Below, one piece after another: positions 17,628 through 62,417 of a DNA stretch of 64,000 nt. The stretch is from Octopus vulgaris. Taxonomy: Eukaryota. Position 1 is the stretch's first letter. Each line of letters begins with the position of its first letter. The stretch spans positions 17,670,001-17,734,000 of the forward strand of contig OX597818.1 in the NCBI GenBank assembly GCA_951406725.2. The letters are read 5' to 3'. A model generated the notes under the pieces. That model had not been told where the DNA came from. It searched no databases and saw nothing but the letters and a program-made list of their open reading frames with translations. Both the position numbers and the translations under genes were made by a program.

Positions 17628-17871
17628 TCAGCTAAAAACAAAGGTCTGTTTCATACTGTCGCTGTTATCAAGTAAATTCTGCAACTGATATTGCTCACGT
17701 CTGCTCAGTCGCGGAATCCAATAATCGTTTATTGATTCTTCGGCCTTTGGTAGTAATTGAAATCGAACCATATCTGCGAGAAATTTGACGAAGAACACTG
17801 CTTGTATTTTGAAATCCAGATATCTGAGAGATTCTATCATTCTCGTAATCCGTTTAAAGTTGTTTGGGTAT
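17628..17871 (-). CDS. OGFRL1: OGFR-like gene A, exon 6 (terminal; YPNNFKRITRMIESL...KQTFVFS*)
   Basis: Acceptor ttttaatttccag, phase 2, RITR motif, stop TGA at 17630-17628. All six exons join in frame: 831 nt, 276 aa. Confidence 0.92.
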
Positions 17872-18252
17872 CTGGAAATTAAAATAAACAACATTGTGAA
17901 ATTTTGTACAATATTGAGGAACTATCGTATATCGGTAGTACGAAATACGAACCAGAAAGATAAAACACTTTTACTGGATATTTAAAGATATCATGAGGTC
18001 TTTCAGGAACGATTCACGAAGACAAGTTAGTTGATGCTGTGAATATTTTCTTTAATCTATAAATCAAATTGGTATGAGTTTCTATTCTTTTTACCCGTCC
18101 CTTTTACATACACGTCAAAGGCAATTAGTTCTAACGATATTTTTACTGTCTTTGTATTTCGTGAAAACACTGACGGCCGAATACAAAGTAGAAATGTATA
18201 AGTTTTCATTGTCAGTATATGAACTATATATTACTTATATATTATATAATTG

Positions 18253-18585
18253 TAGGCGTAGGAGTGGCTGTGTGGTAAGTAGCTTGCTTACCAACCACAT
18301 GGTTCCTGGTTCAGTCCCACTGCATGACACCTTGGGCAAGCGTCTTCTACTATAGCCTCGGGCCGACCAAAGCCTTGTGAGTGGATTTGGTAGACGGAAA
18401 CTGAAAGAAGCCTGTCGTATGTGTGTGAGTGTGTGTTTGTGTGTCTGTGTTTGTCCCCCCAACATCGCTTGACAACCGATGCTGGTGTGTTTACGTCCCC
18501 GTAACTTAGCGGTTCGGCAAAAGAGACCGATAGAATAAGTACTAGGCTTACAAAGAATAAGTCCTGGGGTCGATTTGCTCGAGTT
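18253..18585 (+). mobile_element. tRNA-derived SINE family B (CORE-like), full length
   Basis: A/B-box head tggctgtgtggtaa..ggttcagtccc, then accttgggcaag core. Several copies in the window. Confidence 0.85.
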
Positions 18586-18709
18586 AAAGAGAAGGAGAAT
18601 TCATTATTTACTAAATCATAAAAAAGGAATAACGAGAAACGAAGTGGAATGTATTTTCTTCAATTATCTCCTTAAAATAGAGTTTGTTCCAAGTAATTTA
18701 CTATAATTT

Positions 18710-19400
18710 AGGTATTTGTCTTCTGCAGATGATATATAGTCAATTGTGTGAAGATAAGATGGCGATGAAGAAATGATAATGTTTTATGAAGGTACGCAGC
18801 GTGATTTTCAGTTGAGCAGTTACGGGCAGAGATGACAAGGAATTGGAATTGTCTGGTTTGTGAATTTGGGGTATGAAGTAGATGGTGGAGGTCCAGGATA
18901 TAGTTACAGTTAGGCTGGTGGCAGAGTACGGAAACGTGATGGAAAGATAAGTCCATGCACTGTGGCGGACACGTGTTTCTGGTAATGGCTGGTGAAATCG
19001 TTTAGTATGCTGTAGAACAAAGTTTTGTGGAGCTGGTAGGGTTCTCCTTGATTAGAGATCGGGTCGCCTGATTACGATGGAGCAGCCCTTTGCAGAGTTT
19101 CCGGAGGGCGTCACGTTCCAATTGAGAAGGTTTGATCTTCTTAGTCGCCTTCTGAAGTTGAAGACGGCCAAATCTAAACTGTTTTTATTCACAGATAAAT
19201 CGATCGAGTGGTGTAGGCTCAAACTTGGTATCCAGTTGAAGTTGTGCATTTTGGGGTTGGTGAAATCGTTCTTGATCGGAGGACTAAAGTTCTGTAATGA
19301 AAGAAAGCTTTATGCTCGGGCTGACAGAGGAAACTCTCAATATTAGCGCATACGTCGAATTCTCTAAGCATCTCTTGGAGACGCTTAGATAAAGTTTAAG
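18710..19400 (-). mobile_element. Penelope-like element, N-terminal RT remnant
   Basis: ERDALRKL...SIVIRRPD and VISARNCSTENHAAYL resemble the Penelope IVIKPADKG and RPIVSA..CPTE motifs. Confidence 0.55.
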
Positions 19401-20448
19401 CCCTATTAAGAAGAGCTCGTTCGGTGTCCAAGAGAGATGATTCTTTGAGAATAGTGAAAATCACAGAAGGTGCCGTAAGCACTGTGAAAGAAGTGCAATG
19501 CTGGCAAAAAAAAAAAGCAAATTTCGCAGATATTGGGGTTGATCAAAAGGTCAAATTCGAAAATATAGTAAATTAAGTTGCATGGAAGAGAACAATAGTG
19601 GGTTAGCTCTCATATCAAGTGGTCACGTTTTGTTTACTGTCGCACTTAAAAGATGGCGAATAAGTCGGAGACTGGCAAGAGACAAATACAGAGTGACTGA
19701 CAGAATGGCGTGTTTTTGCTTTGTTTTGCTTTGCTTTGTTTTTGCTTTTTTATTTGTTTTTTGTTTGTTTGTTTTTTTGTCACACTTGACCAGAGTAGTA
19801 AATAGGAAAATCGTAAAAGGATTTAAATGAAAGTGGGTTGGAATATTACATGTTAAAAGAAGTTGCTTGTTGTGTCAGTAGTATTTTCATAAATAGAACA
19901 TTCAACAGTTAAGTAATTTATGATTCAACCAGAATAGTATGAGTGACCTTCTTACTTGATGCCACTTGCTCGTCCAGAGATTGAATTTACGCCCAAACGA
20001 AGAAACGACACCACCAAATACTTAACGCTACACTCACAATTAGACTATATATATGTATTACGAAGTTTAAACCTAAATGTTTTTGGTTGTAGGTTAGGTT
20101 TAAAGCTCTTAATTTCTTCTAATTAATTGTCCTACTAAACAGTGGGATAGTACATGAAAAAGTTGATAAAGTGTTGCTGCACAGGATAGTATCCGAGAAT
20201 ATCTCTAACATGGACAACTGAATGAGAAGAATTTAACTCTGTTACCGAATAGGACAGGCACCTGAAGAATGTTGGAGAGTTTAACTACCGAAGGTTGTGA
20301 CTATGGAAATTAAGATGTGTCGGAGTATATCACAGCATAATAAATATGTATATAAAACGTTTATTTTTGAATTGGGACGCCAAGTTTTCCAAAAGTCTTG
20401 TTCAACAAGTAGTGGTGATTTAATTTTCCAAAGATCATTTTAGAGATA

Positions 20449-20893
20449 GACCAGTTACTGTAGTATTTGTCCTAAAATAACATCTCTTATGGACTTGCTG
20501 TGTTAAAAACCACAATAAATATCAGTGAGAGACGAAAATTTATTCCAGCATTGGCCTGGGAAAGCGCCAGATACATTTCGGCCTTTTGGGGCTTTTTTCA
20601 AAGGCGTGTGCTCACAGCCAGCCACATGCTTGAACGAGAATTCGTCGTCTCTGATATAGAAATAGGTGAATAAATCATTCACTGATGTTGCGAATAGCCT
20701 CCCGGATTTAATAATCTAGTATATGCAATTGATGAGGGATTAAATTAAAAGGCCCTAAAAGGCCGAAATGTATCTAGCGCCCTCGCTGGCTACTGCTGGG
20801 ACTAACGTCTGCATTTCTCTCTAATATTTATTGTTTTAAACACAACAAATCCAGAAGAGATGTTATTCCGAGACAAATACCGCAGTAACTGGC
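20449..20893. mobile_element. MITE with ~150-bp imperfect terminal inverted repeats
   Basis: ccagttactgtagtatttgtc...agatacatttcggcc pairs with ggccgaaatgtatct...gacaaataccgcagtaactgg; TA on both flanks. Confidence 0.75.
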
Positions 20894-21006
20894 CTATCGA
20901 TTATTTGTATACATTGAGTATGATAGCCAGATGACTATTTTGATTAAACATTGCTTCAGTTGCGTACACCTGATACAACCATTATTAAATACATATGCAC
21001 ACACAC

Positions 21007-21079
<73 letters not shown>

Positions 21080-21402
21080 GAAAGAGAGAGAGAGAGAGAG
21101 AAAGAGTGAGAGAGAGAGATATATGAAAGTGTGTATGTATTTATGTATGCATGTATGTATGCATGTATGCATGTATGCATGTATGTATGCATGTATGCAT
21201 GTGTGCAAGTAGACATGTATGCATGTATGTGTATGTGCGTGTGAGTGTACGTGTTGTTTCTGTAATACCAATTTATTTTCACCAGAAATACCAGTATTTT
21301 CTAACTCCTCTATAACCGGACAGCATGACACAAACTCGAGTCGGAAATAAGGGGCGAAGTTAATGGAAGGTTACTATATTCGAAATTAAATTTGTTCATT
21401 AC

Positions 21403-21545
21403 CTTTGAAGATTATCGAATCTTTCACGGAAGTTAGGATGATGACCAAAAGCATGCGGACCAACCATTTGTATGCCATAGAATGTCAACATCATTTTAAA
21501 AGCCCGCAAAACTCTTCTTCTGAGAATAGGTTCAGTGCTGATGAT
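21403..21545 (-). CDS. OGFRL1: OGFR-like gene A, exon 5 (IISTEPILRRRVLRAFKMMLTFYGIQMVGPHAFGHHPNFRERFDNLQR)
   Basis: Acceptor ttgtttcag, donor AG|GTAATG, 143 nt. RA..MML.FYGI and RF.NL motifs of OGFr_N. Confidence 0.92.
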
Positions 21546-21659
21546 CTGAAACAATGGAAGCAATTCACTGTTTAGGACAATATCGCGTCAGTATATTAAG
21601 GATGCTGGTTTGCAGAATCGTTTGTGCGCCGGACAAAAAAAAATCCTCGCAATATTTGT

Positions 21660-22290
21660 TCCGGTCAAGGCGACAAGCTGGCAAAATCGTTAGCATGCTG
21701 GGCAAAATGCTTCGCAATATTTCGTTTGTCTTTATGTCCTGGATTCAAATTCCGCCGAGGTCGACTTTGCCTTTCATCCTTTTGGGGTCGATAAAATAAG
21801 TACCAATCAAACACTAGCGTCGATATAATATCGACTTACCCACCCACCCCTCAAAATTGCTGGCCTTGTGCTAAAATCCGAAACCAATATTTGTTCCGGC
21901 TCTTTGCATTCTAAGTTCAAATCCCACCGTGGTCTTTCTAATTTTGGCACTAGGTCAGCAATTTTGAGGGATGGAAAAAGTCGAATACATCGAACCAGTC
22001 AGTACCCAACTGGTACAAATTTTATCGACCCCCGGAAAAGTAAAGTCGACTTCGGCGTAATTTCAACTGACAACGTAAGGCGCCGAAACAAATGCTGCTT
22101 AGCATTTTGTTCGGTGCGGTAACAAGTTCAAATTCCGCCGAGGTCGACTTTGCATTTCATCTTTTCGTGATCGATAAAATGAATAAATACCGGTTGAACG
22201 TTGGGGGGGTCGATGTAATCAACTAGCCCCCTCCTCATTCCCCCACAATTTCAAACCTTTTGCCTACAGTCGGAAAGATTATTGTGCTGC
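21660..22290. mobile_element. Cluster of SINE family A copies in alternating orientation
   Basis: + copy 21660-21890, - copy 21935-22120, + copy 22124-22280. Confidence 0.75.
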
Positions 22291-23262
22291 TTGTTTATGG
22301 CAGATGTGAACAGAAAATGAAATAATCAAACAGTCACAAGACCGGAAACCGGAAATTTCGGGAGCAGGGGCTAGTTTGCTAATTCAAACTTAGTACTTTA
22401 TTCTACGACCCTAAGAGTATGAAAGTCAATGTTTGATATCGGCAGAATACGGCAATACAGCAATGTATTTTATTCAATGTTCTAACGATTCCACTTATTC
22501 ACGCACAACCCGTTAATAACACTATGTAACAAAATTTTTTAATATTTATTTAAATATCTATTTAAATACTTATTTAAATTTTAAATATTATTTCCTATTT
22601 GCTTCTATCTAGATATCAAAGGAAATTACTATTATTCTTTTCAAACTTTGCTTTTGTGACCTGGACATCAGTGTTTTGAAACTGATCTATTTTCCATTAC
22701 ATTTCAGACAGATTCAGCGCTGAATGCTGAAACAGAAATATCGTTATAGCAAATATTCTGCTCAATGCCACAGATTTGCTTGTCAGTTGCTTGACATTAA
22801 CTACTTGAGCATGTCCCTTTGTGGCTGGCAATATGTGCATCCCTGGTTATGACTAGGAGCAGTGAGGGAGCATCATAGCCATGTTTTGATTGGAATTTTT
22901 TGAGGTTTGAATACATGTAACAAAAGTAAAATCTGAAGGAAATATTAGCCATTTTTCATGCTTTCTAGAGGTAAATAAATAGGAAATAACAGTTGCTACC
23001 CAAGGACCAAAATCATGTTACACTGTGTTATTATTTGTAACACAAGCACGGGTTAGTCGATTACATTGACCCCAGTACTTGACTAGTACTTTATTCCATT
23101 GACTCTAGAGGAATGAAAGACAATACTGACATTGGCAGGGTCAGAACTTAGAATGTAGAGAGCCAGAAAAAAATATGGCAAGGTATGTTGTTCCAAAACT
23201 TGAACCAATCTGTCAGCTCGCCACCTTAAATGCAAACATAAATTATTAAAACTCAGACTTAC

Positions 23263-23332
23263 GCCTCTCTCTTTTTCTGTTAATGGCTGAGCATAAATAT
23301 TCGTCTTGCTGCTTCTCGGGAGAGGAAACAAC
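23263..23332 (-). CDS. OGFRL1: OGFR-like gene A, exon 4 (W-LFPLPRSSKTNIYAQPLTEKERG)
   Basis: Acceptor tttgcactcaag, donor GGC|GTAAGT, 70 nt. Completes the YIQWLFP motif and the A.PLT motif of OGFr_N. Confidence 0.92.
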
Positions 23333-23999
23333 CTTGAGTGCAAACAAAATATTGTTGAAACATAATTGATTGGCGAGGGAGTAAAAAAGAAGTGGGGTGG
23401 GAATCCTCAACGTTTTCCTGGTGTAAAATTTTGTGGACTATGTCAGTGGTTTTCAAACGGTCCAAATCCAGCACTCGTACAAACCCCGACCACGCAGTAA
23501 ATTCCGGGGGAGGAGACAAGTCGGTTACATTGACCTCAGTATTCAACTTTATTAATGAGATGACGTAAGATTTTTCATCCATATAAGGTTTTTTTTCTTT
23601 CTTGGCTATGATGCTTGATAAGTTTAAAAAGTATAAAGCCATCTTGACTTCATTAAACATGGTAATTTTTCCACCTGCTTTTCAATCCTCACAGCTTCCT
23701 ATGAAAAACCCCAGAGACTGCACCAAGTTCACCTATTCATTATCCCTTTGTTAAAGCTTGTTTCCAGCATAGGACATGGACGTGTTGTATGTATTCAGTG
23801 AACATAAAGTTTGCGTCTATTACGTTAGCATCTGCATAGTGCCCGTTTGTCGTGTTAGCTGCATGAATACTTTGATAAAATCTACTGCAAACATCTACAT
23901 GTTATCTTTGCCACGTCATCTATACAGTGTATCTATTTAATCACTTGCTTAGTTAAGTTTTATTCAGTCATTATTTATACAAAGTTAACCATATACAGT

Positions 24000-24140
24000 G
24001 GTTGGCGTTAGGAAGGGCATCCAGCCGTAGAAACTCTGCCAGATCAGACTGGAGCCTGGAGCAGCCCCTGGCTTCCCAGACCCCTGTCGAACCGTCCAAC
24101 CCGTGCTAGCGCGGAAAACGGACGTTAAACGATGATGATG
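24000..24140 (+). mobile_element. SINE family C 3' part with (GAT)n tail
   Basis: ggcgttaggaagggcatccagccgtagaaac...gacgttaaacgatgatg; further copies at 26190, 57135, 61543 and 62545. Confidence 0.75.
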
Positions 24141-24222
24141 ATATATATATATATATATAGTTGCTATGCGAGTACATGTCCGTAATATATATATATATAC
24201 TTGCTATGCGAGTACATCTCCG

Positions 24223-24289
<67 letters not shown>

Positions 24290-24927
24290 AAATCTGCATA
24301 GATTGACTAATAAGCAAAATCTATGCATTATTTCTACTGGGTAGACATTTTTTCACTCTTTGTCCACCAAGTCACTATTTACACCGGAGGCAAAATAGTG
24401 AGCTTGCAAGGTATGTATGTCGAGTGAACATCTTACGTACTGTTTCTATCCAGACGATTTCAGCAACATTTTTCAATTCAATTCAATCAATATCTGTACC
24501 CTATATCAATCCAATTAATAGGTATGCACAGTTCTCCCCAGTTTTCATCTATACACCTGTTCACATTTAAACATTATGTTTCTCTATGTCTATCTCTGCT
24601 GTCAAGATCTACACAAAGTGCGAATCAAACCAACTTACAAATATTCTCTGCATAATCAACGTCTACACATTGTATCAACATTTATGTATACCATCCAATC
24701 AACATCTATGTACATTTGAATGTCCCCTGTATTTATATTAATACAGTGACTATCCAATATCTACACAAAATATGTTCATTGTGTCAATCAAATCAACCCC
24801 TACATACTATATTCCTCCAGTCAATAACTACACACGTTTACTATTCAGTAAACATCGACACTCTGTGTATCTATCTACCAATCCAATCAACATATACACA
24901 CTGCCTCTACCCAGTTATCATGTAGAC

Positions 24928-25269
24928 CAGGGGTTCTGGACCATTTTTCATCAATGGGTCCCTTTGATTACTATTTTATTCTGGTGGACCCCCATAGCCG
25001 TTCAATGTTTAAAGATTAGCCTTATAGAAACTTCTTTCAAAATTCCTATATTGTTTTTAAACATTAACTTGTGTAGGATAAACTATGTAAAATGTTAGAG
25101 AAAGAATCCTAGATGTTTCTTGCAATACATACCAATACATACATCTAAAGCATTTTTAAGGGCCCTTAAAATATTATTGGGGATCTCCGATTTACTATTT
25201 TGTTGCGTGGACCCCAAAAATCTTACAGGCACTTTCAGGGGCCATATGGACCCCGGTTGAGAACCACTG
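24928..25269. mobile_element. hAT-type MITE
   Basis: TIRs caggggttct/agaaccactg, 8-bp TSD atgtagac/atttagac. Second copy at 46001. Confidence 0.8.
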
Positions 25270-25392
25270 ATTTAGACAGACGACTACCTGACCAATACAT
25301 AAAACAATATCTAGCCCGTCAAAGTACAAAGATCATGTATATTTCTCAGGCAATAAAAAAATGATAAGGCAAAAATTTAATCAGGCACTTAC

Positions 25393-25471
25393 CATTGTAT
25401 GTACCCACTATGGTGCTGGAGTATTTCAAAATCCTCAGCCCAAGATTCCAAAATTACTTCTATATAGGCAC
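25393..25471 (-). CDS. OGFRL1: OGFR-like gene A, exon 3 (GAYIEVILESWAEDFEILQHHSGYIQW)
   Basis: Acceptor ttttttaag, donor TG|GTAAGT, 79 nt, phase 1 to 2. Matches OGFr IEDILQNW..Y..LE..HSYIQW. Confidence 0.92.
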
Positions 25472-26339
25472 CTTAAAAAAAGACATTGGAAGGTAGGTCA
25501 CGGTGAGTAATGTTTACTGCGTTATTTTTTTGACTTTGAGAAAAAATATTTTCAAGGGATAGGGATAGACAGCTGAGGTTATGCAATAGCTGCGCATTTA
25601 CAACATATTTGACACATGGAAAACCTTCAAATACTATTAAGCCATAATCATTCGTGACGCAATTATTCTTATACGAATATGTGTTTGCATGCATTATACA
25701 TACATACACACACACACACACATATATATATAATGCATTCACACACACAAACACACATATATATATATATACATATACACACACACACATACATATATGT
25801 ATACATGCATACATACAAGCATACTTACATACACACATATACACATACATTACATACATACATATATATATATATATACATACATACATTCATACATACA
25901 TACATAAATACATACATACATACATAAAAAATATACACATATAAATGAATACAGTGAAGTGTTCCCCTGATGATCCATTGCGGTCAGGCATCCAAATGCA
26001 CTTGGAACATGCAATAACTGCAATGGTGAAACGTACGTAGGTACTATTAATCTATGCTTGTGGTTATCTTAATTTTCCACAACATATACTTTTTATGTCA
26101 GAACTAGTAACAACGCTAAGTACAGTGTAAACTAACCACAGCATATATACCATCATCATCATCCTCATCATCATCGTCATCGTCATCATCATCATTATAT
26201 TTAACGTACGTTTTCCATGCTGGCATGGGTAGCTTTGACAGGAACTGGCAAGTTATATGACTGTAACAGGCTCTGATGTTTGTTTTGGCATTGCTCCTAC
26301 GGCTGGATGCCCTTCCTAGCGCCAATTCTTGTATATATC

Positions 26340-26846
26340 GATATATATAAAGCAAAGGATGTTTGTGTGTGTGTGTGTGTGTCTGTGTGTGAGTCTGTGT
26401 GTGTAATACGCATGCATTTCTACAGTTTTCAACCGATTTTCACCAAACTTTACACACATTACTCATGTGCCATGGATGGTCAAACACAATGAGTTTTTTC
26501 CCAGAGCTCCCGCGTAATGCAACAAACCGACCATGAAAAAAACAGTTTTTCACGTGGATTCTTCTCCAAAAGACTGCAGTTTCCAACCGATTCTCTCCCT
26601 TTCACTTCTGCAGTTTTCAAACAAGTCTCTCCCATTTCTCTCTATTTATCTCTTTTCCTTTTTCTCACTTTCACATATACAGATATCGGCGATCTTTCGT
26701 TTGTAGTAGCACGTTTCCGTCGATGATTTCCGTAAAAAACTTTTATTTTTTTACATATGGGTTTGCGGGAAAAGTTTTTTACGGAAATCATCGACGGAAA
26801 CGTGCTACTACAAACGAAAGATTGCCCAGATATCTGTTTCTTTCAA

Positions 26847-26926
<80 letters not shown>

Positions 26927-28192
26927 TTGGCTTCAGTGTATTTCAATTTTGTCGAGTGTAAATATCTTTGTTTCACGCTATTTGTACATTCTCTCTATAA
27001 TATTACTTTACTTATTTCAAATTTTCTGTACCCCGTCTATCTAAATACACTATTTACATTTCTCCCTCTATCGAAAACCGCTGTGTAATATTGCTTCACT
27101 TTTATTCTTTTAGTTTTGTGCGTGTGTTTGTGCGTTCGATGCGTACGAGACACTAAAGGACATTTCAAACTACTACGATGACAACGTCACATATATGTGT
27201 GTATGTGTCTCTGAGTGTATGTGTGTGGATGTATTGAGTGTGTATGTCTTTCTATGTGTGTGCATCCGCGTTAGGTACGTTATTAAACGTACACACATAT
27301 CTACACATACATATACACATGTGACGACTGACATGCATGAATGTATGTTTGTATGTGTCTCTCTAACTATATGTATGTGTCTGCATGTGAGAGTGTATGT
27401 GTGCGTATCGTCACATTTTGTATACGAATGTGTATGTGTCTGTGAGTGTGTGTTTTCACGCTCGTTACCTACGTTATTACACACGCGCATACATCTACGC
27501 AAACTCTCGACAAAAACAATTACGTGGAAGGTCCAAGTTATATATAAAAAATACACATCTACCGTTCCATTAAGAATTCATAATTATCGCAGCAATAGCA
27601 AGCTTGCAAGGTATTTTTCGAAAACCACATATTGCTTATATTTGGTAACTTTACATTGCATACAAAAATATAGACATACTACATACATACAACTGCTTGC
27701 AAAAATAGAGATTAATGTATTTTTTTCTATGTATCTAATTTTTTGTTTAAAATATTGAAAAAAAATATGCCACCAAAGTGAAACCGTAATCTCTCCAGAA
27801 ACACCTATAAAGCAAAGAGGAGTGCAGAAAACTGAAGGCGAGAGTCTCAAGAGATAAGAGACACGAGACTTTCTCAACATCAGCAAAGGCATTATGCAGC
27901 AAGTCAGATGGAGTCTCAATACAGAAGGGACATGACACTTTCCAAAGATCACCAAAGGCAAATACAGTCCCAAGACAGAAGGGAAATGAGACTTTCTCAA
28001 GATCAGCAAAGGCATGCTGCAGCACTTAATGCTGAATCATTAAAACAACGTTTAGCACGCCAGATTACGCAGAGGTCCAATAGAATAGCTTTCCGAAACA
28101 GATGCAAAGCTTTAACATTTACTCCACAAATGTAATATATATATAAACAAACTATGCCGTTTTAATCCCGAACAACGCCGGGTATCTCTGCT

Positions 28193-28195
<3 letters not shown>
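26340..28195 (+). mobile_element. Non-autonomous Helitron with degenerate Rep N-terminal coding remnant
   Basis: 5' tatatataaag..gtgt..caaccgattttcaccaaact; 3' hairpin cccgaacaacgccggg followed by ctatt (decayed CTAG); MPPK..RESQE.R.TRL repeats at 27767-28135. Confidence 0.65.
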
Positions 28196-28241
<46 letters not shown>

Positions 28242-28289
28242 TCATATTCATGTGTATGTGTGCGCGCATATATATATATATATATATAT

Positions 28290-29113
28290 AATTTTTAATA
28301 AATAAAATATATGCATACATACATATATGTACGTACCGACATCTACATGTATATATACATGCATATATATATATATATGAGTACAGGACACCACAAATAG
28401 ACGTAGAACTCAACGAGAAACGAAAACATAAAAACAAACATGGAAACTGACTTTTTTTAACAACGAAAAAACAGAGTACAAGACAAACAATACAAGGAAT
28501 ATTCCCCTTCATCAGCTGTCCCTGGTTCGACTCCATGCGTGTTTCGAAGGTAAGGACAGAACACGACCCGTCGAACCAATCCTTCCTGCAAAAGAATTAA
28601 ATAAAATTCCTTTGCAGAGGGATAAAAACAAGGAAAGAAAAAATGTGACAAGAACAGGACGTAAAAGCAATACAAATAAAAATACGAATACAAAATAATT
28701 TTTATTTTATTTAGTATTCGTATTTTTATTTGTATTGCTTTTACGTCTTGTTCTTGTTACATTTTTTTCTTTCCTTGTTTTTACCCCTCTGCAAAGGAAT
28801 TTTATTTAATTCTTTTGCAGGAAGGACTGGTTCGACGGGTCGTGTTCTGTCCTTACCTTCGAAACACGCATGGAGTCGAACCAGGGACAGCTGATGAAGG
28901 GGAATATTCCTTGTATTGTTTGTCTTGTACTCTGTTTTTTCGTTGTTAAAAAAGTCCGTTTCCATGTTTGTTTTTATGTTTCCGTTTCTCGTTGAGTTCT
29001 ACGTCTATTTGTGGTGTCCTGTACTCATATATATATATGCATGTATATATACATGTAGATGTCGGTACGTCCATATATGTATGTATGTATGCATATATTT
29101 TATTTATTAAATT
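28290..29113. repeat. ~820-bp near-perfect palindrome (two ~400-bp arms, ~22-nt spacer)
   Basis: 28290-28691 is the reverse complement of 28714-29113 with only a handful of substitutions. Confidence 0.95.
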
Positions 29114-29173
29114 TTGTATGACTGAGCGCCCTCGCGTCGTTTCGTTTCTTTTCTTTTCTCCAAGTAAGTTTTT

Positions 29174-29229
<56 letters not shown>

Positions 29230-29270
29230 GTAGGTAGGTAGGTAGGTAGGTAGGTAGGTAGGTAGGTAGG

Positions 29271-29366
<96 letters not shown>
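29174..29366. repeat. (GATA)n/(GGTA)n microsatellite
   Basis: Seen directly. Confidence 0.95.
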
Positions 29367-29717
29367 AAAATGAGGAATACGAGCAGATTAAATGCAGGAT
29401 TAATTTTTTCATTTTTTTTAATTACCTCTGCTTCCGAGAAGATAAAACAATCGCTAGGTGGCAGTTAGGACTAAATCCAAATAAGGAGAAGTGCTAAGCT
29501 AATAAAATCAAGAATTCCAGGGGAATTCTTTACTGTTCACTTTTTGCCCCTCCAAACGTCGAACTACACTAGTTCAAAAACGAACTTCAAAGAGTACAAA
29601 TTTCAGTCTCACACCACACGGTAGAACTAAGGGATTCTTCCTCATCGTTCGACAAATATAAGGAAAACAGCAACACTGTCATCACTACACAGAAAGTTTA
29701 AAATCAAGTCAACGTAC

Positions 29718-29940
29718 CATTGGGAAGTGACGGTTCTTTGTTGAAGTAAAACTTTATATTCGCATTTCTATTTTCTTCAAATAAATAACTTGGAGGAGAA
29801 GAGCTCGAAATCTCTCGATAAAAAACGTTCTCTTCTTTCGGAACCGTCCTCATAAAACACTTCGGTCGCTTACATATATCAGGTCGAGAACGTGAGGATC
29901 CCGTTGTCACATGCATTATCGGAGTCATGATGTAATAGGG
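29718..29940 (-). CDS. OGFRL1: OGFR-like gene A, exon 2 (PYYIMTP...NANIKFYFNKEPSLPN)
   Basis: Acceptor tttacctag, donor G|GTACGT, 223 nt. The C-terminal NIKFYFNKEPSLPNG matches the OGFr_N start motif NLxFYxNxIxFxPNG. The symbol is a family-level call. Confidence 0.85.
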
Positions 29941-29983
29941 CTAGGTAAAGGTGATAAATGATTTACATAATTATGATTTGACA

Positions 29984-30778
<795 letters not shown>

Positions 30779-30779
<1 letters not shown>

Positions 30780-31330
30780 GAGTGAGAGAGCAGTTCATGC
30801 CATCAAAGTGACACTGGGGTAAAATATACGAAGCCCAATATACCCATCATGACTACCCGTCTGATAAAGGTACACCAGGCACATGCATCACAACCATATG
30901 TGCGCGACATGGTGATCTCATATCAAGATAAACAGCACATGACCTTGCAGGTGGGGCCCAGGTAGAATTTTCTTCAGGTTGAGTAGCCCATCCCGCTCAA
31001 ACGGTCCCTGAATAAGGGTTGTTTAAGGATGTTGAAAGAACCACCCATGTTTCCAGAGGTGAACTATTCAAACCCCAAAGAATCCCTCTCAACACATGGC
31101 TATGATGCTCCCCCACTACTTCTGCTTGTGATCAGAGATGCACATATCGTCAGCCACTAAGGGACATGCTCAACTGGTTAAGGTCAAACAACTGACAAGC
31201 AAATCTGTGGTATTGAGCAGAATAATTGCTGTAGCCCATCTTTTATACCAAGACAAAACAATGTACATGATAACACTTCCAGTCAGTTAAGACCAGAAGC
31301 CATGAGAGCCACTGCCTGGTACTGCATCTA
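30779..31330. mobile_element. Interspersed repeat embedded in an (ATT)n tract
   Basis: Flanked by (TAT)n; partial inverted copy at ~22740-22900. Confidence 0.6.
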
Positions 31331-32664
31331 TTATTATTATTATTATTATTATTATTAAAGCGGCAAGTTGGCGGAATCGTTGTTCGCATGCCGTGTAAAA
31401 TGTGAAGAAGGGGACAGTAAATATATTTCTTTACTGCCCAGAAGGAGCTAAACATAGAGGGGACAACCAAGGACAGACGAAGGGAATGAGTCGATTATAT
31501 CACCCCCAGTGCGAAAGTGGTACTTAATTTATCGACCCCGAAAGGATGAAAGGCAAAGTTGACCTCGGCGGAATTGGAACTCAGAAAGTAACGACAGACG
31601 AAATACTGCTAAGCATTTTGCCCGGCGCACTAACGTGTCTGCCAGCTCGCTAGCCCTGGAAGACACTTCACTTACAACAGAGATTTCACCATACCGTAAA
31701 TTTTAATGTTTAAAATCATAGCGAGACCAGAAAACATGACCACTGGACCGTATGAAAGGACGATGAGAATGAAGTCATTAAGGTTTAGTAACGAAATAGT
31801 GGACAAACTAGAGGAAGATCTTATTAAGAACCTAAGAAAGGGCGTTTAGGAAACGTATCGGGACCACCATGCAGGCAGTGAGATTGGACTTCGACTAATA
31901 TTACAAGTAAAACACAAAAGTTGCATTGTCAGAGCAAGGGCACGCACACGAAGACATGAAGCCGTTCGATTGGCCCGGGTGTCAGAGGCATTGTGTGGCA
32001 CACAAGTAGAAAGGCCCTTTGCTATTACGTCCAGGGCTAGTTAGTTTGGCGAGGTCGAAGTCCTATTTATGACTGAAACCCTCGCACTCTATGATTGCCC
32101 ACCAGAGTAATGATTTCTCTCTCTTCCCCACTTCTGTGGAAAGAAGGATGGTAAAGCTAACAGTATTGCGAATCCCACTGGAGATAGACTTCTAGAGGAT
32201 CCTGACCTGCATAGTGTTGAAGGGGTGTAATACCGTACTGGACGTTATGAGAATGAGATGGAAGAATTGGTTAAAGATCAAACTATAGGTCCCTCCTCAT
32301 ATAAAATCTGAACACCTAGAAAAGATCTCATGCTCATCTTCCTGTCAAATGGGATGGTGCTGTGAGTAACTTTTGGCCACACAACCAAAATCACGTAAGG
32401 GAAGAGAAGGGCCGCACTGCTGCCGACACCATCGCGGCAACAACAACAACGTGCAATAACAAAGGTTGTAGCAAGAGCAGCAGCGAGAGGGTAAACAGAA
32501 GCAACAATAACAACATCGGCAATAGCCGCAGCAACCGTAGAAACAGTAAAAACAGCAGCACTAACAACATCAACATATAACCGCTAGGCGTACAAACTGC
32601 GGTGGAGGAAATTAACAATTGCAACACCAAAATCTCCACCCAGGGGATATCTCAACCCAGGTCT

Positions 32665-32727
<63 letters not shown>

Positions 32728-32731
32728 TCTC

Positions 32732-32774
<43 letters not shown>

Positions 32775-33189
32775 CTGCTTTCCCCTATTTCTCTATTTCT
32801 CTCTCTTCCTACATGTATAAAGACATACGCAGAGAAGGAAGCATATACTTTTCCATGTCCGAGTCGGGGTTTTTCGATCATACAACCAACCTTTTGTGGT
32901 GGAGTGAGGGGACGGGAAGGACAAAAATGAAAAATAAAAGAAAAAAGGAACAAAACACAAAACAGCAAAAAATAAAGACCTACAATCGTACTCGGCAAAG
33001 TGAAGACATAGAGACAGTGAGAAGGCTTTCAATAAATGTACAGTGAAAGTCAGTGGTGACTTAAAGTTACCAATCGAGAAGCACATGAATATGAGAGAGA
33101 TTTCCACATGACATTAGAAAACCCAGCGTCGTGGCCTCGGTTTTTTCAACTAGTGATGTGGAGTTCTGTAAAAAGCCAATAATAATTGA

Positions 33190-33870
33190 AATATAAGAAG
33201 CTATGGCTGGCTGCACGGGGGAAAAGGTCTGGATGGTCTGTCCAATGAGTTTTATCGTCATACGCCAGACTTCTTCTGATGCCTATTGCAACAAGCAGCA
33301 GAACGAGAGAATTATCAGTCCTGTGAAAAGAGGCGTGTTAATGCTGCTGAGAACGGACCCAAACAAGAGGAGTGATTTTTGATAATTTTAGGCCCATATC
33401 TCTGCTAAATGCAAAGCTCAAATTTTACGACAACGTGTCAGCCTAGAAGTTGGCGCTTTTCATCGATACTCTGGTCGGCGATGTTCAGTCATGCACCATA
33501 CCAAAGAGATCTAACTCCGACAGCCACCCTACGCGATACAACAAAAAGGATTGTGTAAGGAACTTGGCATGGATAGAGCCTTTATAAATTTAGATCAAAA
33601 GAAAGCTTTCGATTAGGTTGAACAATACTTTAAGGCTGTCCTTACAGGCGGTTGGATTTGAGCTCGTCTTCTGAGGCTGTATCGTTGTCATGTACAGTAA
33701 GTATGCTCAGTAGTCAGAGTGAAGGTCACCTATTGGAACTGTTCAGTGTCATGTGTTCGTTCCGTCAAGGATGTTTCCTCTCGCCCCATCTGTACGAGCC
33801 ACTACTGCAGAAATTGCAGTTTTCCAGGGGCATCCCATGTGAAAGAACCATGTCAGTATATACGGGCGAC
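33190..33870 (+). mobile_element. Tx1/L1-clade LINE RT remnant
   Basis: LDGLSNEFY, NFRPISLLNAKLKIL, INLDQKKAFD, RQGCFLSPHLY motifs, with stops and frameshifts. Confidence 0.8.
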
Positions 33871-34429
33871 GAATATGAAGGAAAGTATGTGATGCGCATG
33901 CCTTCCTAGAGGTTTTTAATGACCAGCCTGAAGTGGAATAGCACCAACCACAAATTTAATTGATACGTTGAATCTTACACAATATGAGCTAACTCAAACA
34001 ATGAACTATTCAAAGTATATACAACACTATTAAAAAAGAGCAAGAATATGTTCTTGCCGAGAGAGGTCCTCCACTCATTATTAGTAAATTTCTGTGTTGC
34101 TTATAAAGTTTTGCATACTCCTACTTGATGCATTTCTTGTTAATATCATCCCCTTCTTTCAGCAAGAAACAACATTCTCAGATTAAATAACAAATCATAT
34201 GAGTAAATTTAGAGTAGCGAATGTTATAAAGTTTTGGATCAGGTACTACATACTAGGAACGATAAGGTGAGTTTATTTTTGCTTCTTTCTTCCTATTTCT
34301 AGCGGGGTGGGACTAACATTTTCGTATGCATTGGTTAATATATAGTTAACCTGTGTAATATATTAACCGGACACATTTGGTCATAGGTCTTCTTGATCAG
34401 GGCTGACCAAGAGCTAAACAACAATAATA

Positions 34430-34572
34430 CACCAGCGTAGCTGGGGAGGGGGTGCCTAGGGATGGTTCGCCCCGAGTGGTACTTTTGGGTCTACTGTAGG
34501 TAATATGTGTTTTTTGTGGGGCGACAAACGGAAGGGCCGCCTCGGGTGGCAGAAGTTATAGCTACGCTAGTG
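34430..34572. mobile_element. Short hAT-like MITE
   Basis: TIRs caccagcgtagct/agctacgctagtg. Confidence 0.55.
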
Positions 34573-34638
34573 CAACAATAGCAACATTCCTGATTCACTG
34601 AGAACACCAGTATCTAAATAAAGTAAAGCAAAACTTAC

Positions 34639-34710
34639 CTTTTTTAATAAGTTACAGAAAAAGAACATAAACACGAATATCAGCAGCGTAATCAATAACC
34701 AGAATAACAT
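34639..34710 (-). CDS. OGFR-like gene A, coding exon 1 (hydrophobic signal-anchor MLFWLLITLLIFVFMFFFCNLLKK)
   Basis: ATG at 34710, 72 nt, ends AAG|GTAAGT (consensus donor). Phase 0 matches exon 2. No acceptor upstream, so read as the first coding exon. Confidence 0.7.
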
Positions 34711-34857
34711 TCTCGTATGTGTGCGTGTGTCCCACTGTCTCTATTTGTCCGTCTGTCTATCTGTCTGTCTTTATTTCTCTTTTCTTTCTCTTTAACTCAC
34801 ACCTCTCTTGCATTCAGCATCACCTCTCTCTCTCTTTCCTTCTCTCTCTTTCTCTCT

Positions 34858-38319: not shown

Positions 38320-39349
38320 TTGACCAACTCAATGATTTCAAAAATTTAATCGACAGTGTCAACAACCATATCCAATTTACAATATAGTCAAAATATAGTC
38401 AATATAGTCAAAACCAACTTCCTTTTCTTGACATTCTTGTTATATAAAAAAAAAGGTACCAACATTGAAACTGATATCCACTACAAATCAACTGATTCCA
38501 AACAATACCTCCTGTTCACCTCCAATCACCCAAAGCACACGAAGACAAACCTCCCCTTCAACCTAGCGAGAAGAATCTGTACAATTGTCTCAAATTATAG
38601 GACGCGAAATAAAAGACTCCAAGAACTAAAGGCACTTCTTCTCGAAAGACATTATCCAGCACCATTAGTTGACAATGGAATAGAATGGGCCAAGACAATC
38701 GATACCCAAGACTTAGGAAAACTGAAACACACTCAAGGTACATTAAATATTCTCCCATATCTCTCAACACACAATCCAAGAAATGCAGAAGCTTACACAA
38801 TTATATACAAGAACATCCTACTACTGAGTCAAGACCCACTCTAAAAAAGGCACTCAAAACCCATAAAATAATAAAAAGCAAGAGACAACCCAAATCCTTA
38901 AGAAACCTACTCACCAATGCAAAATTATCCAACACAAGCCCACCACCCAAAATATGCGGTCGATCTAACTGCAGGACTTGCATCCACCTCATTGAAGGAA
39001 CAATATACAAATTCCAGTCGGGACACACTTTTGTCGTAAAAAATAACTTCACCTGCGCATTAAAGAATTTACTTTATGCTATAAGGTGTGAAGGATGCCA
39101 CAAAACTTACGTAGGGCAAACGAGTCTTACCCTCAGAGAAGGACGACAGCCCACCGCCAACAATTAAGGGACCCCTCCACAAGACAGATACCACTTAGTG
39201 TTCACTTAGATCTCTATGCACAAAACAAGTCCCCCAAATTCCTAGTTTTCCCACTATACCAATGCCCAGACAACACCACTGACCAAACACGAATAAATAG
39301 GGAAAATAATCTTATTCAAAAATACAGACCACAACTCAACATACTCTAA
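38320..39349 (+). mobile_element. Penelope-like element: RT thumb plus GIY-YIG endonuclease, frameshifted
   Basis: TDIHYKSTDSKQYLLFTSNHP, NLARRI, CGRSNCRTC, FTC...LLYAIRCEGCHKTYVGQT..L, RE..LI.KYRPQLN. Confidence 0.9.
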
Positions 39350-40270: not shown

Positions 40271-40582
40271 TACCACACAAATATGATTTTTATTGAACTC
40301 AAAATACTTACTATGTTCCCTTTCTTGAATACTTTCATGCAAACTGTTTTTAACATTTTCTTATCATGATCAAAGACTGTATGACTGTATTTTAATACTT
40401 TTATGCTAACCATTTTTTAACACAACAAAGCTTATACAAAGCTTTACATTTTACTTTTGATAATCTTTTTCTAAAAAAAGTGAAACCGGTTAAGTCAATA
40501 AACATCGCTAAAAGACCGTTGCATTTTCAAACCTTCGTTCATATATATTTTCACTCGTGCGGTTCCTTACAACTTTACTTTG

Positions 40583-62203: not shown

Positions 62204-62417
62204 CTAAAATTCATTAATGTTTTCAGAATTTGAACTGAGTTCAAACTCTTGAACAACTGGAATCCAGAAATTTTTAAGAGAATAGTCAGCTTCTTTAAGA
62301 ATTCCACTATCAACTTCATGCTTCAGGAAATCTAACCAGTTTCTCTGTTCTGTCTTCAAACCAAATTCTCCAAGGGCTATTAGGATTCTGGTGATTCTCA
62401 AGAAATTATGATGTCTT
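62204..62417 (-). CDS. OGFRL1: OGFR-like gene B, terminal exon (RHHNFLRITRILIALGEFGL...NINEF*)
   Basis: Acceptor tttatttctag, same phase 2 and position as gene A exon 6. Canonical HNxLRITRILxxLGExG motif. Upstream exons presumably lie beyond the window. Confidence 0.88.

What the first reader, a model, noticed from the sequence alone, without database searches (positions are those of the whole stretch)
17628..34710. OGFR-domain protein with an N-terminal membrane anchor
Seen: six exons splice in frame to 276 aa: ~21 hydrophobic residues, KK, a ~65-aa linker, a full OGFr_N domain and no long C-terminal tail. Established: vertebrate OGFr and OGFRL1 are soluble proteins without a transmembrane helix. 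Inference: no basic residues before the hydrophobic stretch and KK after it suggest a P450-style N-lumen/C-cytosol anchor, or else a signal peptide. Either would place this poorly understood domain in a new compartment.
Basis: partly seen in the sequence, partly recalled or inferred. Interest (0 to 1): 0.72.

Follow-up and report, generated by a model that had tools for sequence, protein, structure and literature searches.

The report
Membrane-anchored OGFR-domain genes in octopus
An octopus gene, one of four tandem copies, encodes a relative of the human "opioid growth factor receptor" that begins with a hydrophobic stretch likely anchoring it in a membrane with the domain facing the cytoplasm; this copy lacks three residues that almost all relatives keep, so it is likely a disabled version of a predicted, still unassigned enzyme.

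Summary
Six GT-AG exons give 276 aa. Spliced contigs from three runs (one study) join the hydrophobic first exon to exon 2. RefSeq proteins of two Octopus species start the same way. The gene is copy C of a four-gene tandem OGFr_N array; copies A and D and a Sepia homologue also begin with a hydrophobic helix. An uncleaved anchor with the domain in the cytosol is the best reading (about 65%); it was not tested by SignalP/TMHMM or experiment. The 'new compartment' claim is overstated: human OGFRL1 is reported as myristoylated, and 18 of 140 relatives start with a myristoylation-like motif. The helix probably replaces a lipid anchor. New here: copy C has lost three near-invariant polar residues (E>Q117, H>S120, H>N199), while copy A keeps them, which suggests an enzyme/pseudo-enzyme pair. 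Viral and bacterial fusions (NADAR, ADP-ribosylglycohydrolase) point weakly to ADP-ribose chemistry; the scan noted that lead before on other DNA. A helix-type anchor is rare among relatives (5 of 149). I found no paper describing it in nine literature searches.

The parts
34711..34821 (-). 5' untranslated part of exon 1 as far as contigs reach; in-frame stop at 34743-34741 upstream of the ATG in the window sequence
   Evidence: contigs X17-X19 cover 34639-34821; sequence
34639..34710 (-). coding exon 1, 24 aa: hydrophobic run (residues 1-22, 34710-34645) plus KK; phase-0 donor AAG|GTAAGT; predicted uncleaved signal-anchor
   Evidence: helix 2-21 in the AlphaFold model
29718..29940 (-). exon 2: low-confidence linker (residues 25-79) and start of OGFr_N
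25393..25471 (-). exon 3: LQHHSGYIQW motif; carries E>Q117 (25418-25416) and H>S120 (25409-25407)
   Evidence: exon 2/3 junction seen in contigs
23263..23332 (-). exon 4: LFP...LT..E
   Evidence: matches RefSeq protein P0004
21403..21545 (-). exon 5: MLTFYG motif
17628..17871 (-). exon 6 to the stop codon: NNFKRITR in place of HN.LRITR; H>N199 at 17864-17862
40312..40413 (-). minor alternative first exon (open frame of 34 codons, phase-0 donor) giving an anchor-less isoform; only its last 30 bases were seen in RNA contigs
62204..62417 (-). last exon of tandem paralogue B (HHNFLRITRIL intact); the rest of B and all of A lie beyond the window end, D beyond the window start

Best explanation
This is an expressed octopus OGFr_N-family gene, one of four tandem copies, whose first exon encodes a hydrophobic helix that likely acts as an uncleaved anchor holding the domain on the cytoplasmic face of a membrane, and whose loss of three near-invariant polar residues likely makes it an inactive, binding-only copy of a predicted enzyme. 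Shown: gene structure, splicing of exon 1, the array, the shared hydrophobic first exon, the three substitutions. Inferred (about 0.65): SRP-type insertion into the ER with N-terminus in the lumen (type III, as in cytochrome P450), the helix taking over the role that N-myristoylation plays in OGFRL1 and many other members. Inferred (about 0.35): OGFr_N acts on ADP-ribose or an ADP-ribosylated target. Inferred (about 0.6 if the family is an enzyme): copy C has lost catalysis and binds substrate or tunes the intact membrane-bound copy A.
For: Splicing and start site. Orthologues with the same N-terminus. All four copies start with a small hydrophobic first exon (A 26 aa, B 19 aa and only moderately hydrophobic, C 24 aa, D 22 aa), with phase-0 donors seen for A, C and D. 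Sepia CAE1264559.1 has charge difference C minus N of +8 and a sequon before the helix; its unnamed relative P0045 has +5. Copy C: +1, no A/G/S in 22 residues, no sequon anywhere. Membrane targeting recurs in the family from the cytosolic side: 26 of 140 relatives start MG, 18 of 140 fit a recalled myristoylation pattern; human OGFRL1 is in a myristoylome; a giant-virus protein joins FYVE, OGFr_N and NADAR (L044). Residue loss: E at 117 in 156 of 161 domain rows and 78 of 78 bacterial rows (Q in 0); H at 120 in 144 of 161 and 79 of 79; H at 199 in 153 of 161 and 79 of 79 (N in 0); copies A, B and Sepia keep all three; O. bimaculoides C has Q, N, N. The copy is still constrained: 169 of 186 domain residues are identical between the two species, after a long stem branch (0.93), and the domain models at pLDDT above 90. 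ADP-ribose context: 5 of 25 viral loci examined have NADAR fused (2) or Macro, PARP or NUDIX within two genes (3); 2 of 27 bacterial loci have a Macro-type or ADP-ribosylglycohydrolase gene next door; an Atlas cluster of 99 fuses OGFr_N to ADP-ribosylglycohydrolase; an RNA-virus-like polyprotein holds it between methyltransferase and helicase (L061), where Macro domains sit in related viruses (recalled).
Against: No SignalP or TMHMM and no localisation was run; the topology rests on rules of thumb. The charge rule is weak for C (+1) and is zero or negative for A (0 and -2) and D (-2), which also have possible (-3,-1) cleavage sites. A nematode protein with a working signal peptide and a short OGFr_N match (residues 35-62) is published (PMC5876317), and a rotifer member has a signal-peptide-like start (P0128). 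No activity is known for any OGFr_N protein, so 'pseudo-enzyme' presumes an enzyme; I could not inspect model coordinates to show that the three residues share one pocket; H119 next to S120 might compensate. 25 of 27 bacterial and 20 of 25 viral loci showed no ADP-ribose gene, and no background rate was measured. Deubiquitinase fusion also occurs (UCH in L041). Fold searches found no ADP-ribose enzyme among the top rows. The bacterial set is mostly cyanobacteria fished with the YIQWLFP motif. The myristoylation control does not correct for the known excess of Gly at position 2 or for kinship.
Confidence: 0.5

Rival explanations
1. The hydrophobic segment is a cleaved signal peptide or a type II anchor, so the domain ends up in the ER/Golgi lumen or outside the cell; the lost residues reflect a new extracellular binding role.
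For: The segment starts at residue 1; copies A and D have (-3,-1) sites and neutral or acidic C-flanks; two linker cysteines (47, 52) are kept in both species; a secreted nematode protein with a partial OGFr_N match exists.
Against: No small residues and no site near the helix end in C; KK follows the helix; no sequons in the domain; the Sepia homologue has a 17-residue acidic leader with a sequon and a strongly basic C-flank; the family's other anchors work on the cytosolic side.
Confidence: 0.2
2. The helix is a signal-anchor for the mitochondrial or peroxisomal outer surface rather than the ER; the domain is still cytosolic and copy C still degenerate.
For: N-terminal helix followed by basic residues is also the layout of Tom20/Tom70-type anchors (recalled).
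Against: Hydropathy of 2.6-3.9 over 19 residues in A, C and D is higher than usual for such anchors (recalled); the Sepia leader carries a sequon.
Confidence: 0.1
3. Copy C is a fully active membrane-bound enzyme whose three substitutions changed its substrate rather than removing catalysis.
For: It keeps Q124, W125, F127, P128, N136, N200, R203 and R206 and is conserved between species.
Against: Q at 117 and N at 199 occur in 0 of 161 related domain rows; two histidines and a glutamate are the residues most typical of catalysis (general knowledge); copy D lost a different subset, as drifting sites would.
Confidence: 0.12
4. It is a membrane receptor for a Met-enkephalin-like peptide, as the family name suggests.
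For: The vertebrate OGFr literature as summarised in PMC11062026; a scallop OGFR paper exists (reference line only).
Against: Opioid precursors and classical opioid receptors were not found in the O. vulgaris transcriptome (PMC12919962, passage); the domain is conserved in bacteria and viruses; a type III anchor leaves no extracellular part.
Confidence: 0.04
5. Copy C is a decaying duplicate without a function.
For: Long stem branch and loss of conserved residues.
Against: Open frame and same N-terminus in two species, 91% domain identity, deep RNA contigs.
Confidence: 0.04

Closest known systems
Vertebrate OGFR and OGFRL1 (Pfam PF04664 OGFr_N)
   Same: Full-length OGFr_N match; same motifs F-Y, YIQWLFP, ML.FYG, N..RITR; OGFRL1 is reported myristoylated, so it too probably sits on membranes.
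   Different: Helix anchor instead of lipid; no long acidic or repeat tail; three conserved residues lost; the cephalopod copies lie outside the vertebrate-type clade in the tree, so the RefSeq name 'OGFRL1' is not shown orthology.
Type III (N-lumen/C-cytosol) signal-anchor proteins such as microsomal cytochrome P450 (recalled)
   Same: No basic residue before a long hydrophobic run at residue 1, basic pair after it, proline-containing linker, then a soluble domain.
   Different: Unrelated domain; weak charge bias in C; topology untested.
MiISE6 of Meloidogyne incognita (PMC5876317)
   Same: Published N-terminal secretory signal in front of an OGFr_N match.
   Different: Only residues 35-62 match the domain; it is secreted and goes to the plant nucleus; homology to this gene was not tested.
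DUF1810 / Rv1873 (PF08837, PDB 2JEK)
   Same: Appears in both fold searches over nearly its whole length (Z 6.6, rmsd 4.3, 120 of 140 aligned, rank 9; Z 6.2, rmsd 3.9, 126 of 140, rank 4); H.YIQWLFP aligns to HWMWFIFP; 1 of 12 DUF1810 loci was opened and is fused to PARG-type and ADP-ribosylglycohydrolase domains.
   Different: Z is within the range of unrelated helical proteins; profile match is weak (probability 6.8%, E 0.005; 1.5% with the eukaryotic profile); DUF1810 has no known function either.

Membership tests
OGFr_N family (PF04664) | HMM score over the curated cut-off across the profile | tested here: met
   133.8 bits against cut-off 22, profile 3-199/208
OGFr_N family (PF04664) | near-invariant polar residues of E..H.YIQW and HN..RI.R | tested here: not met
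   E>Q117, H>S120, H>N199; Q124, N136, N200, R203, R206 kept. A degenerate member, not a typical one.
Vertebrate OGFR/OGFRL1 orthology group | groups with vertebrate-type sequences in a tree | tested here: not met
   vertebrate-type clade (100/99) excludes the octopus copies, which sit with other cephalopod sequences at 91/92; most rows carry no taxon label and the vertebrate label is partly recalled
Type III signal-anchor membrane protein | N-terminal hydrophobic run long enough to span a bilayer | tested here: met
   22 uncharged residues, hydropathy 2.83, helix 2-21 in the model
Type III signal-anchor membrane protein | more positive charge after the helix than before | tested here: inconclusive
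   +1 for C, +8 Sepia, +5 P0045, 0 to -2 for A and D
Type III signal-anchor membrane protein | not cleaved by signal peptidase; domain cytosolic | not testable with these tools
   only a (-3,-1) rule of thumb was applied: no site before residue 30 in C
ADP-ribose-processing enzymes (NADAR, Macro, ADP-ribosylglycohydrolase) | shared fold or sequence profile | tested here: inconclusive
   no such family among Pfam matches or top fold rows; the link is by fusion and neighbourhood only
ADP-ribose-processing enzymes (NADAR, Macro, ADP-ribosylglycohydrolase) | hydrolytic or binding activity | not testable with these tools
   needs an assay
DUF1810/Rv1873 superfamily link | significant structure or profile match | tested here: inconclusive
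   Z 6.2-6.6; hhalign probability 6.8%

The most novel reading that the evidence does not exclude
OGFr_N is an unrecognised family of ADP-ribose-processing enzymes that eukaryotes place on cytosolic membrane faces (myristoyl in OGFRL1, FYVE in a giant virus, a transmembrane helix in coleoid cephalopods). Octopus expanded it into a membrane-anchored array with an intact enzyme (A) and pseudo-enzyme partners (C, D), whose natural substitutions mark the catalytic residues E117, H120 and H199 for the whole family, including human OGFR and OGFRL1.
Probability: 0.22. Interest if true: 0.75.

Novelty: new variant of a known kind. Interest (0 to 1): 0.42.

Why it matters
OGFR and OGFRL1 have no agreed molecular function, although OGFRL1 loss is reported in recessive cherubism families (PMC11062026). 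The octopus array offers short proteins made of little more than anchor plus domain, with intact and degenerate versions side by side. That names three candidate catalytic residues and suggests the domain works at cytosolic membrane surfaces, not as an opioid receptor. The anchor itself is a modest, lineage-level variation that is already present, unremarked, in RefSeq models.

Tried and rejected
Chance hydrophobic frame: rejected by RNA contigs. No run on record as RNA was listed; splicing in the contigs is the evidence that they are RNA. Word-based protein searches found only Octopus proteins, which does not show absence elsewhere; no squid or cuttlefish orthologue of copy C was seen among the best 150 of 1865 hits. 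No solved structure by sequence or by Foldseek; NADAR, Macro and ARH were not listed in the fold searches, which does not exclude them. The second Atlas search gave no usable hit. Independent origin of the anchors in P0101 and P0139: they fall elsewhere in the tree and the anchor needs 6 changes on the 52-row tree, but holding them with the cephalopod group was not rejected (p-AU 0.098). The group table only set anchored rows against bacteria and is not informative. No further OGFr_N gene outside the array was found in G000, a lower bound. A link of OGFRL1 to tankyrase through cherubism is tempting (SH3BP2 mutations hit its tankyrase-binding motif), but the authors found no genetic interaction in mice; I do not count it as support. 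DUF1810 was not found in 5 OGFr_N-bearing genomes. Literature: nine searches showed no paper on helix-anchored OGFr_N proteins or on an ADP-ribose role; subscription papers, including the scallop OGFR paper and Zagon 2002, were not seen, and the supplements of PMC12955691 (site-level myristoylation) were not opened.
Full report
1. Observation. The first exon needed outside proof, because 24 ATG-started hydrophobic stretches occur in this microsatellite-rich window. Contigs from runs X17 and X18 continue from exon 2 into exon 1. Contigs from X17, X18 and X19 cover 34639-34821 and splice to exon 2; these three runs are one study of a very close relative. An in-frame stop lies 11 codons upstream of the ATG in the window. 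RefSeq proteins of O. sinensis (274 of 276 identical) and O. bimaculoides (86%) have the same N-terminus. One run also shows a minor first exon ending at 40312, with a non-hydrophobic frame (depth 7.55 against 712.3); contig depth is only a rough guide to level.

2. Surroundings. The gene is copy C of four OGFr_N genes in tandem on the minus strand over about 170 kb of G000:C5, with matching intron positions where checked (A, B). Named proteins map to A (P0171), B (P0170/P0172) and D (P0157). A and D begin with strongly hydrophobic first exons; B has a moderately hydrophobic one (1.49) and a long polar linker. A Sepia protein (CAE1264559.1) and an unnamed close relative also have an N-terminal helix. 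Among the best 150 of 1865 representative hits, 5 of the 149 other than the orthologue have a clear N-terminal hydrophobic peak: three in the cephalopod group and two unnamed ones elsewhere in the tree; one more is marginal (1.91). The cephalopod sequences group at 91/92 with one extra row and apart from the vertebrate-type clade; support is short of the tool's threshold. So the anchor probably predates the octopus duplications and is shared with cuttlefish; this is inference from an unlabelled tree.

3. Topology. No predictor was on hand, so I applied rules of thumb. Copy C has 22 uncharged residues with no A/G/S, no (-3,-1) site before residue 30, KK directly after, and no sequon. The Sepia protein is a textbook type III layout. 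A and D are ambiguous by charge and have possible cleavage sites, which keeps a lumenal or secreted domain open (about 0.2). Family context favours the cytosolic side. 26 of 140 Met-started relatives begin MG and 18 fit a recalled myristoylation pattern, against 74 and 19 of 1274 internal Met positions (not corrected for kinship or start-codon context). Human OGFRL1 is named among myristoylated substrates (PMC12955691, two passages). A giant-virus protein carries FYVE with OGFr_N. The helix is therefore best read as another way to reach a membrane face that the family already uses.

4. The domain. AlphaFold gives a confident helical domain (residues about 76-270, pLDDT mostly above 90), a disordered linker and an N-terminal helix. 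Against 161 domain rows from the representative hits and 80 bacterial rows, copy C keeps the core but has Q, S and N at three near-invariant positions (E117, H120, H199); O. bimaculoides C has Q, N, N; D has lost a different set (H120, Q124, N136, R203); A, B, Sepia and Argonauta keep all. C has a long stem and short tips, with 169 of 186 domain residues identical between species. That pattern fits a duplicate that lost catalysis and then stayed constrained. It presumes an enzyme, and I could not check the pocket geometry.

5. What the domain may do. No solved relative was found by sequence or Foldseek. Rv1873 (DUF1810) recurs in both VIA searches at Z 6.2-6.6 over nearly its whole chain, within the range of unrelated helical proteins, and the profile match is weak. 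Context gives a lead. Of 32 viral loci I examined 25 and scanned 73 proteins: NADAR fusions in 2, Macro, PARP or NUDIX nearby in 3. Of 80 bacterial loci I scanned neighbours for 27 (75 proteins): 2 have a Macro-type or ADP-ribosylglycohydrolase gene adjacent. Three plasmid regions showed none. An Atlas cluster fuses OGFr_N with ADP-ribosylglycohydrolase, and one DUF1810 protein is fused to PARG-type and ADP-ribosylglycohydrolase domains. OGFr was captured into the Pol frame of amphibian endogenous retroviruses (bioRxiv 2021.11.23.469661, passages). No background rate was measured, and most loci show no such neighbour, so I put ADP-ribose chemistry at about 0.35. Three earlier notes of this scan reached the same lead on other DNA; they are not independent support, and one is marked as partly fallen.

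6. Comparison and novelty. It is a member of OGFr_N by profile, a degenerate one by residues, and not shown to be an OGFRL1 orthologue. It works, by inference, like a P450-type anchored protein. A secreted nematode protein with a partial OGFr_N match is in print (PMC5876317, passages). An OGFR is mentioned for O. vulgaris without detail, with opioid precursors absent (PMC12919962, passages). OGFRL1 is described as of largely unknown function (PMC11062026, passages and Discussion part 1). Nine searches of the open library showed no description of helix-anchored OGFr_N proteins; for the other listed papers I saw listings and abstract openings only.

7. Verdict. Real gene, real and conserved anchor exon, new variant of a known family. 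The compartment is probably not new; the intact/degenerate pairing and the three residues are the useful result. Interest 0.42.

Noticed in passing
G000:C5 about 17,632,600-17,805,800 (window -37404 to +135792): Four tandem OGFr_N genes; A and B are close duplicates sharing even intron sequence, D is degenerate at different conserved positions than C and has a CC..C.H.H motif in its linker.
   Followed up: partly
window 40312-40413 (-): Minor alternative first exon that swaps the hydrophobic anchor for a lysine-rich start, seen in one run.
   Followed up: partly
window 30208-30327 (-) and dispersed copies: The 23-aa insert of O. bimaculoides isoform X1 (P0005) resembles a dispersed repeat present many times in the window (E 0.024); probably an exonised repeat (SINE label recalled).
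   Followed up: no
window 51239-53685 (+): Several short frames that look by eye like reverse transcriptase and integrase of a broken Gypsy-type element (recalled motifs); Pfam gave no match at 1e-3.
   Followed up: partly
window 38350-39167 (+): Two frames that look by eye like the end of a Penelope-type element with a GIY-YIG motif (recalled); no Pfam match.
   Followed up: partly
L044:2581-4983 and L052:2362-3429: Viral FYVE + OGFr_N + NADAR and NADAR + OGFr_N fusions.
   Followed up: partly
L061:166-5247: RNA-virus-like polyprotein with OGFr_N between methyltransferase and superfamily 1 helicase.
   Followed up: no
L041, L050, L053, L058: Giant-virus OGFr_N proteins fused to a UCH domain (L041, Pfam) or to OTU-like motifs seen by eye (recalled, not called by Pfam); L053 and L058 lie next to DVNP genes.
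   Followed up: no
L162:1477-3393: DUF1810 + microbial PARG + ADP-ribosylglycohydrolase fusion.
   Followed up: partly
L075: Labelled Lachnospiraceae, but the OGFr_N protein looks eukaryotic and lies beside a proteasome subunit; probably a binning contaminant.
   Followed up: no
P0006-P0016: Eleven of the best hits carry two or three OGFr_N domains in tandem, one named as Dreissena.
   Followed up: no
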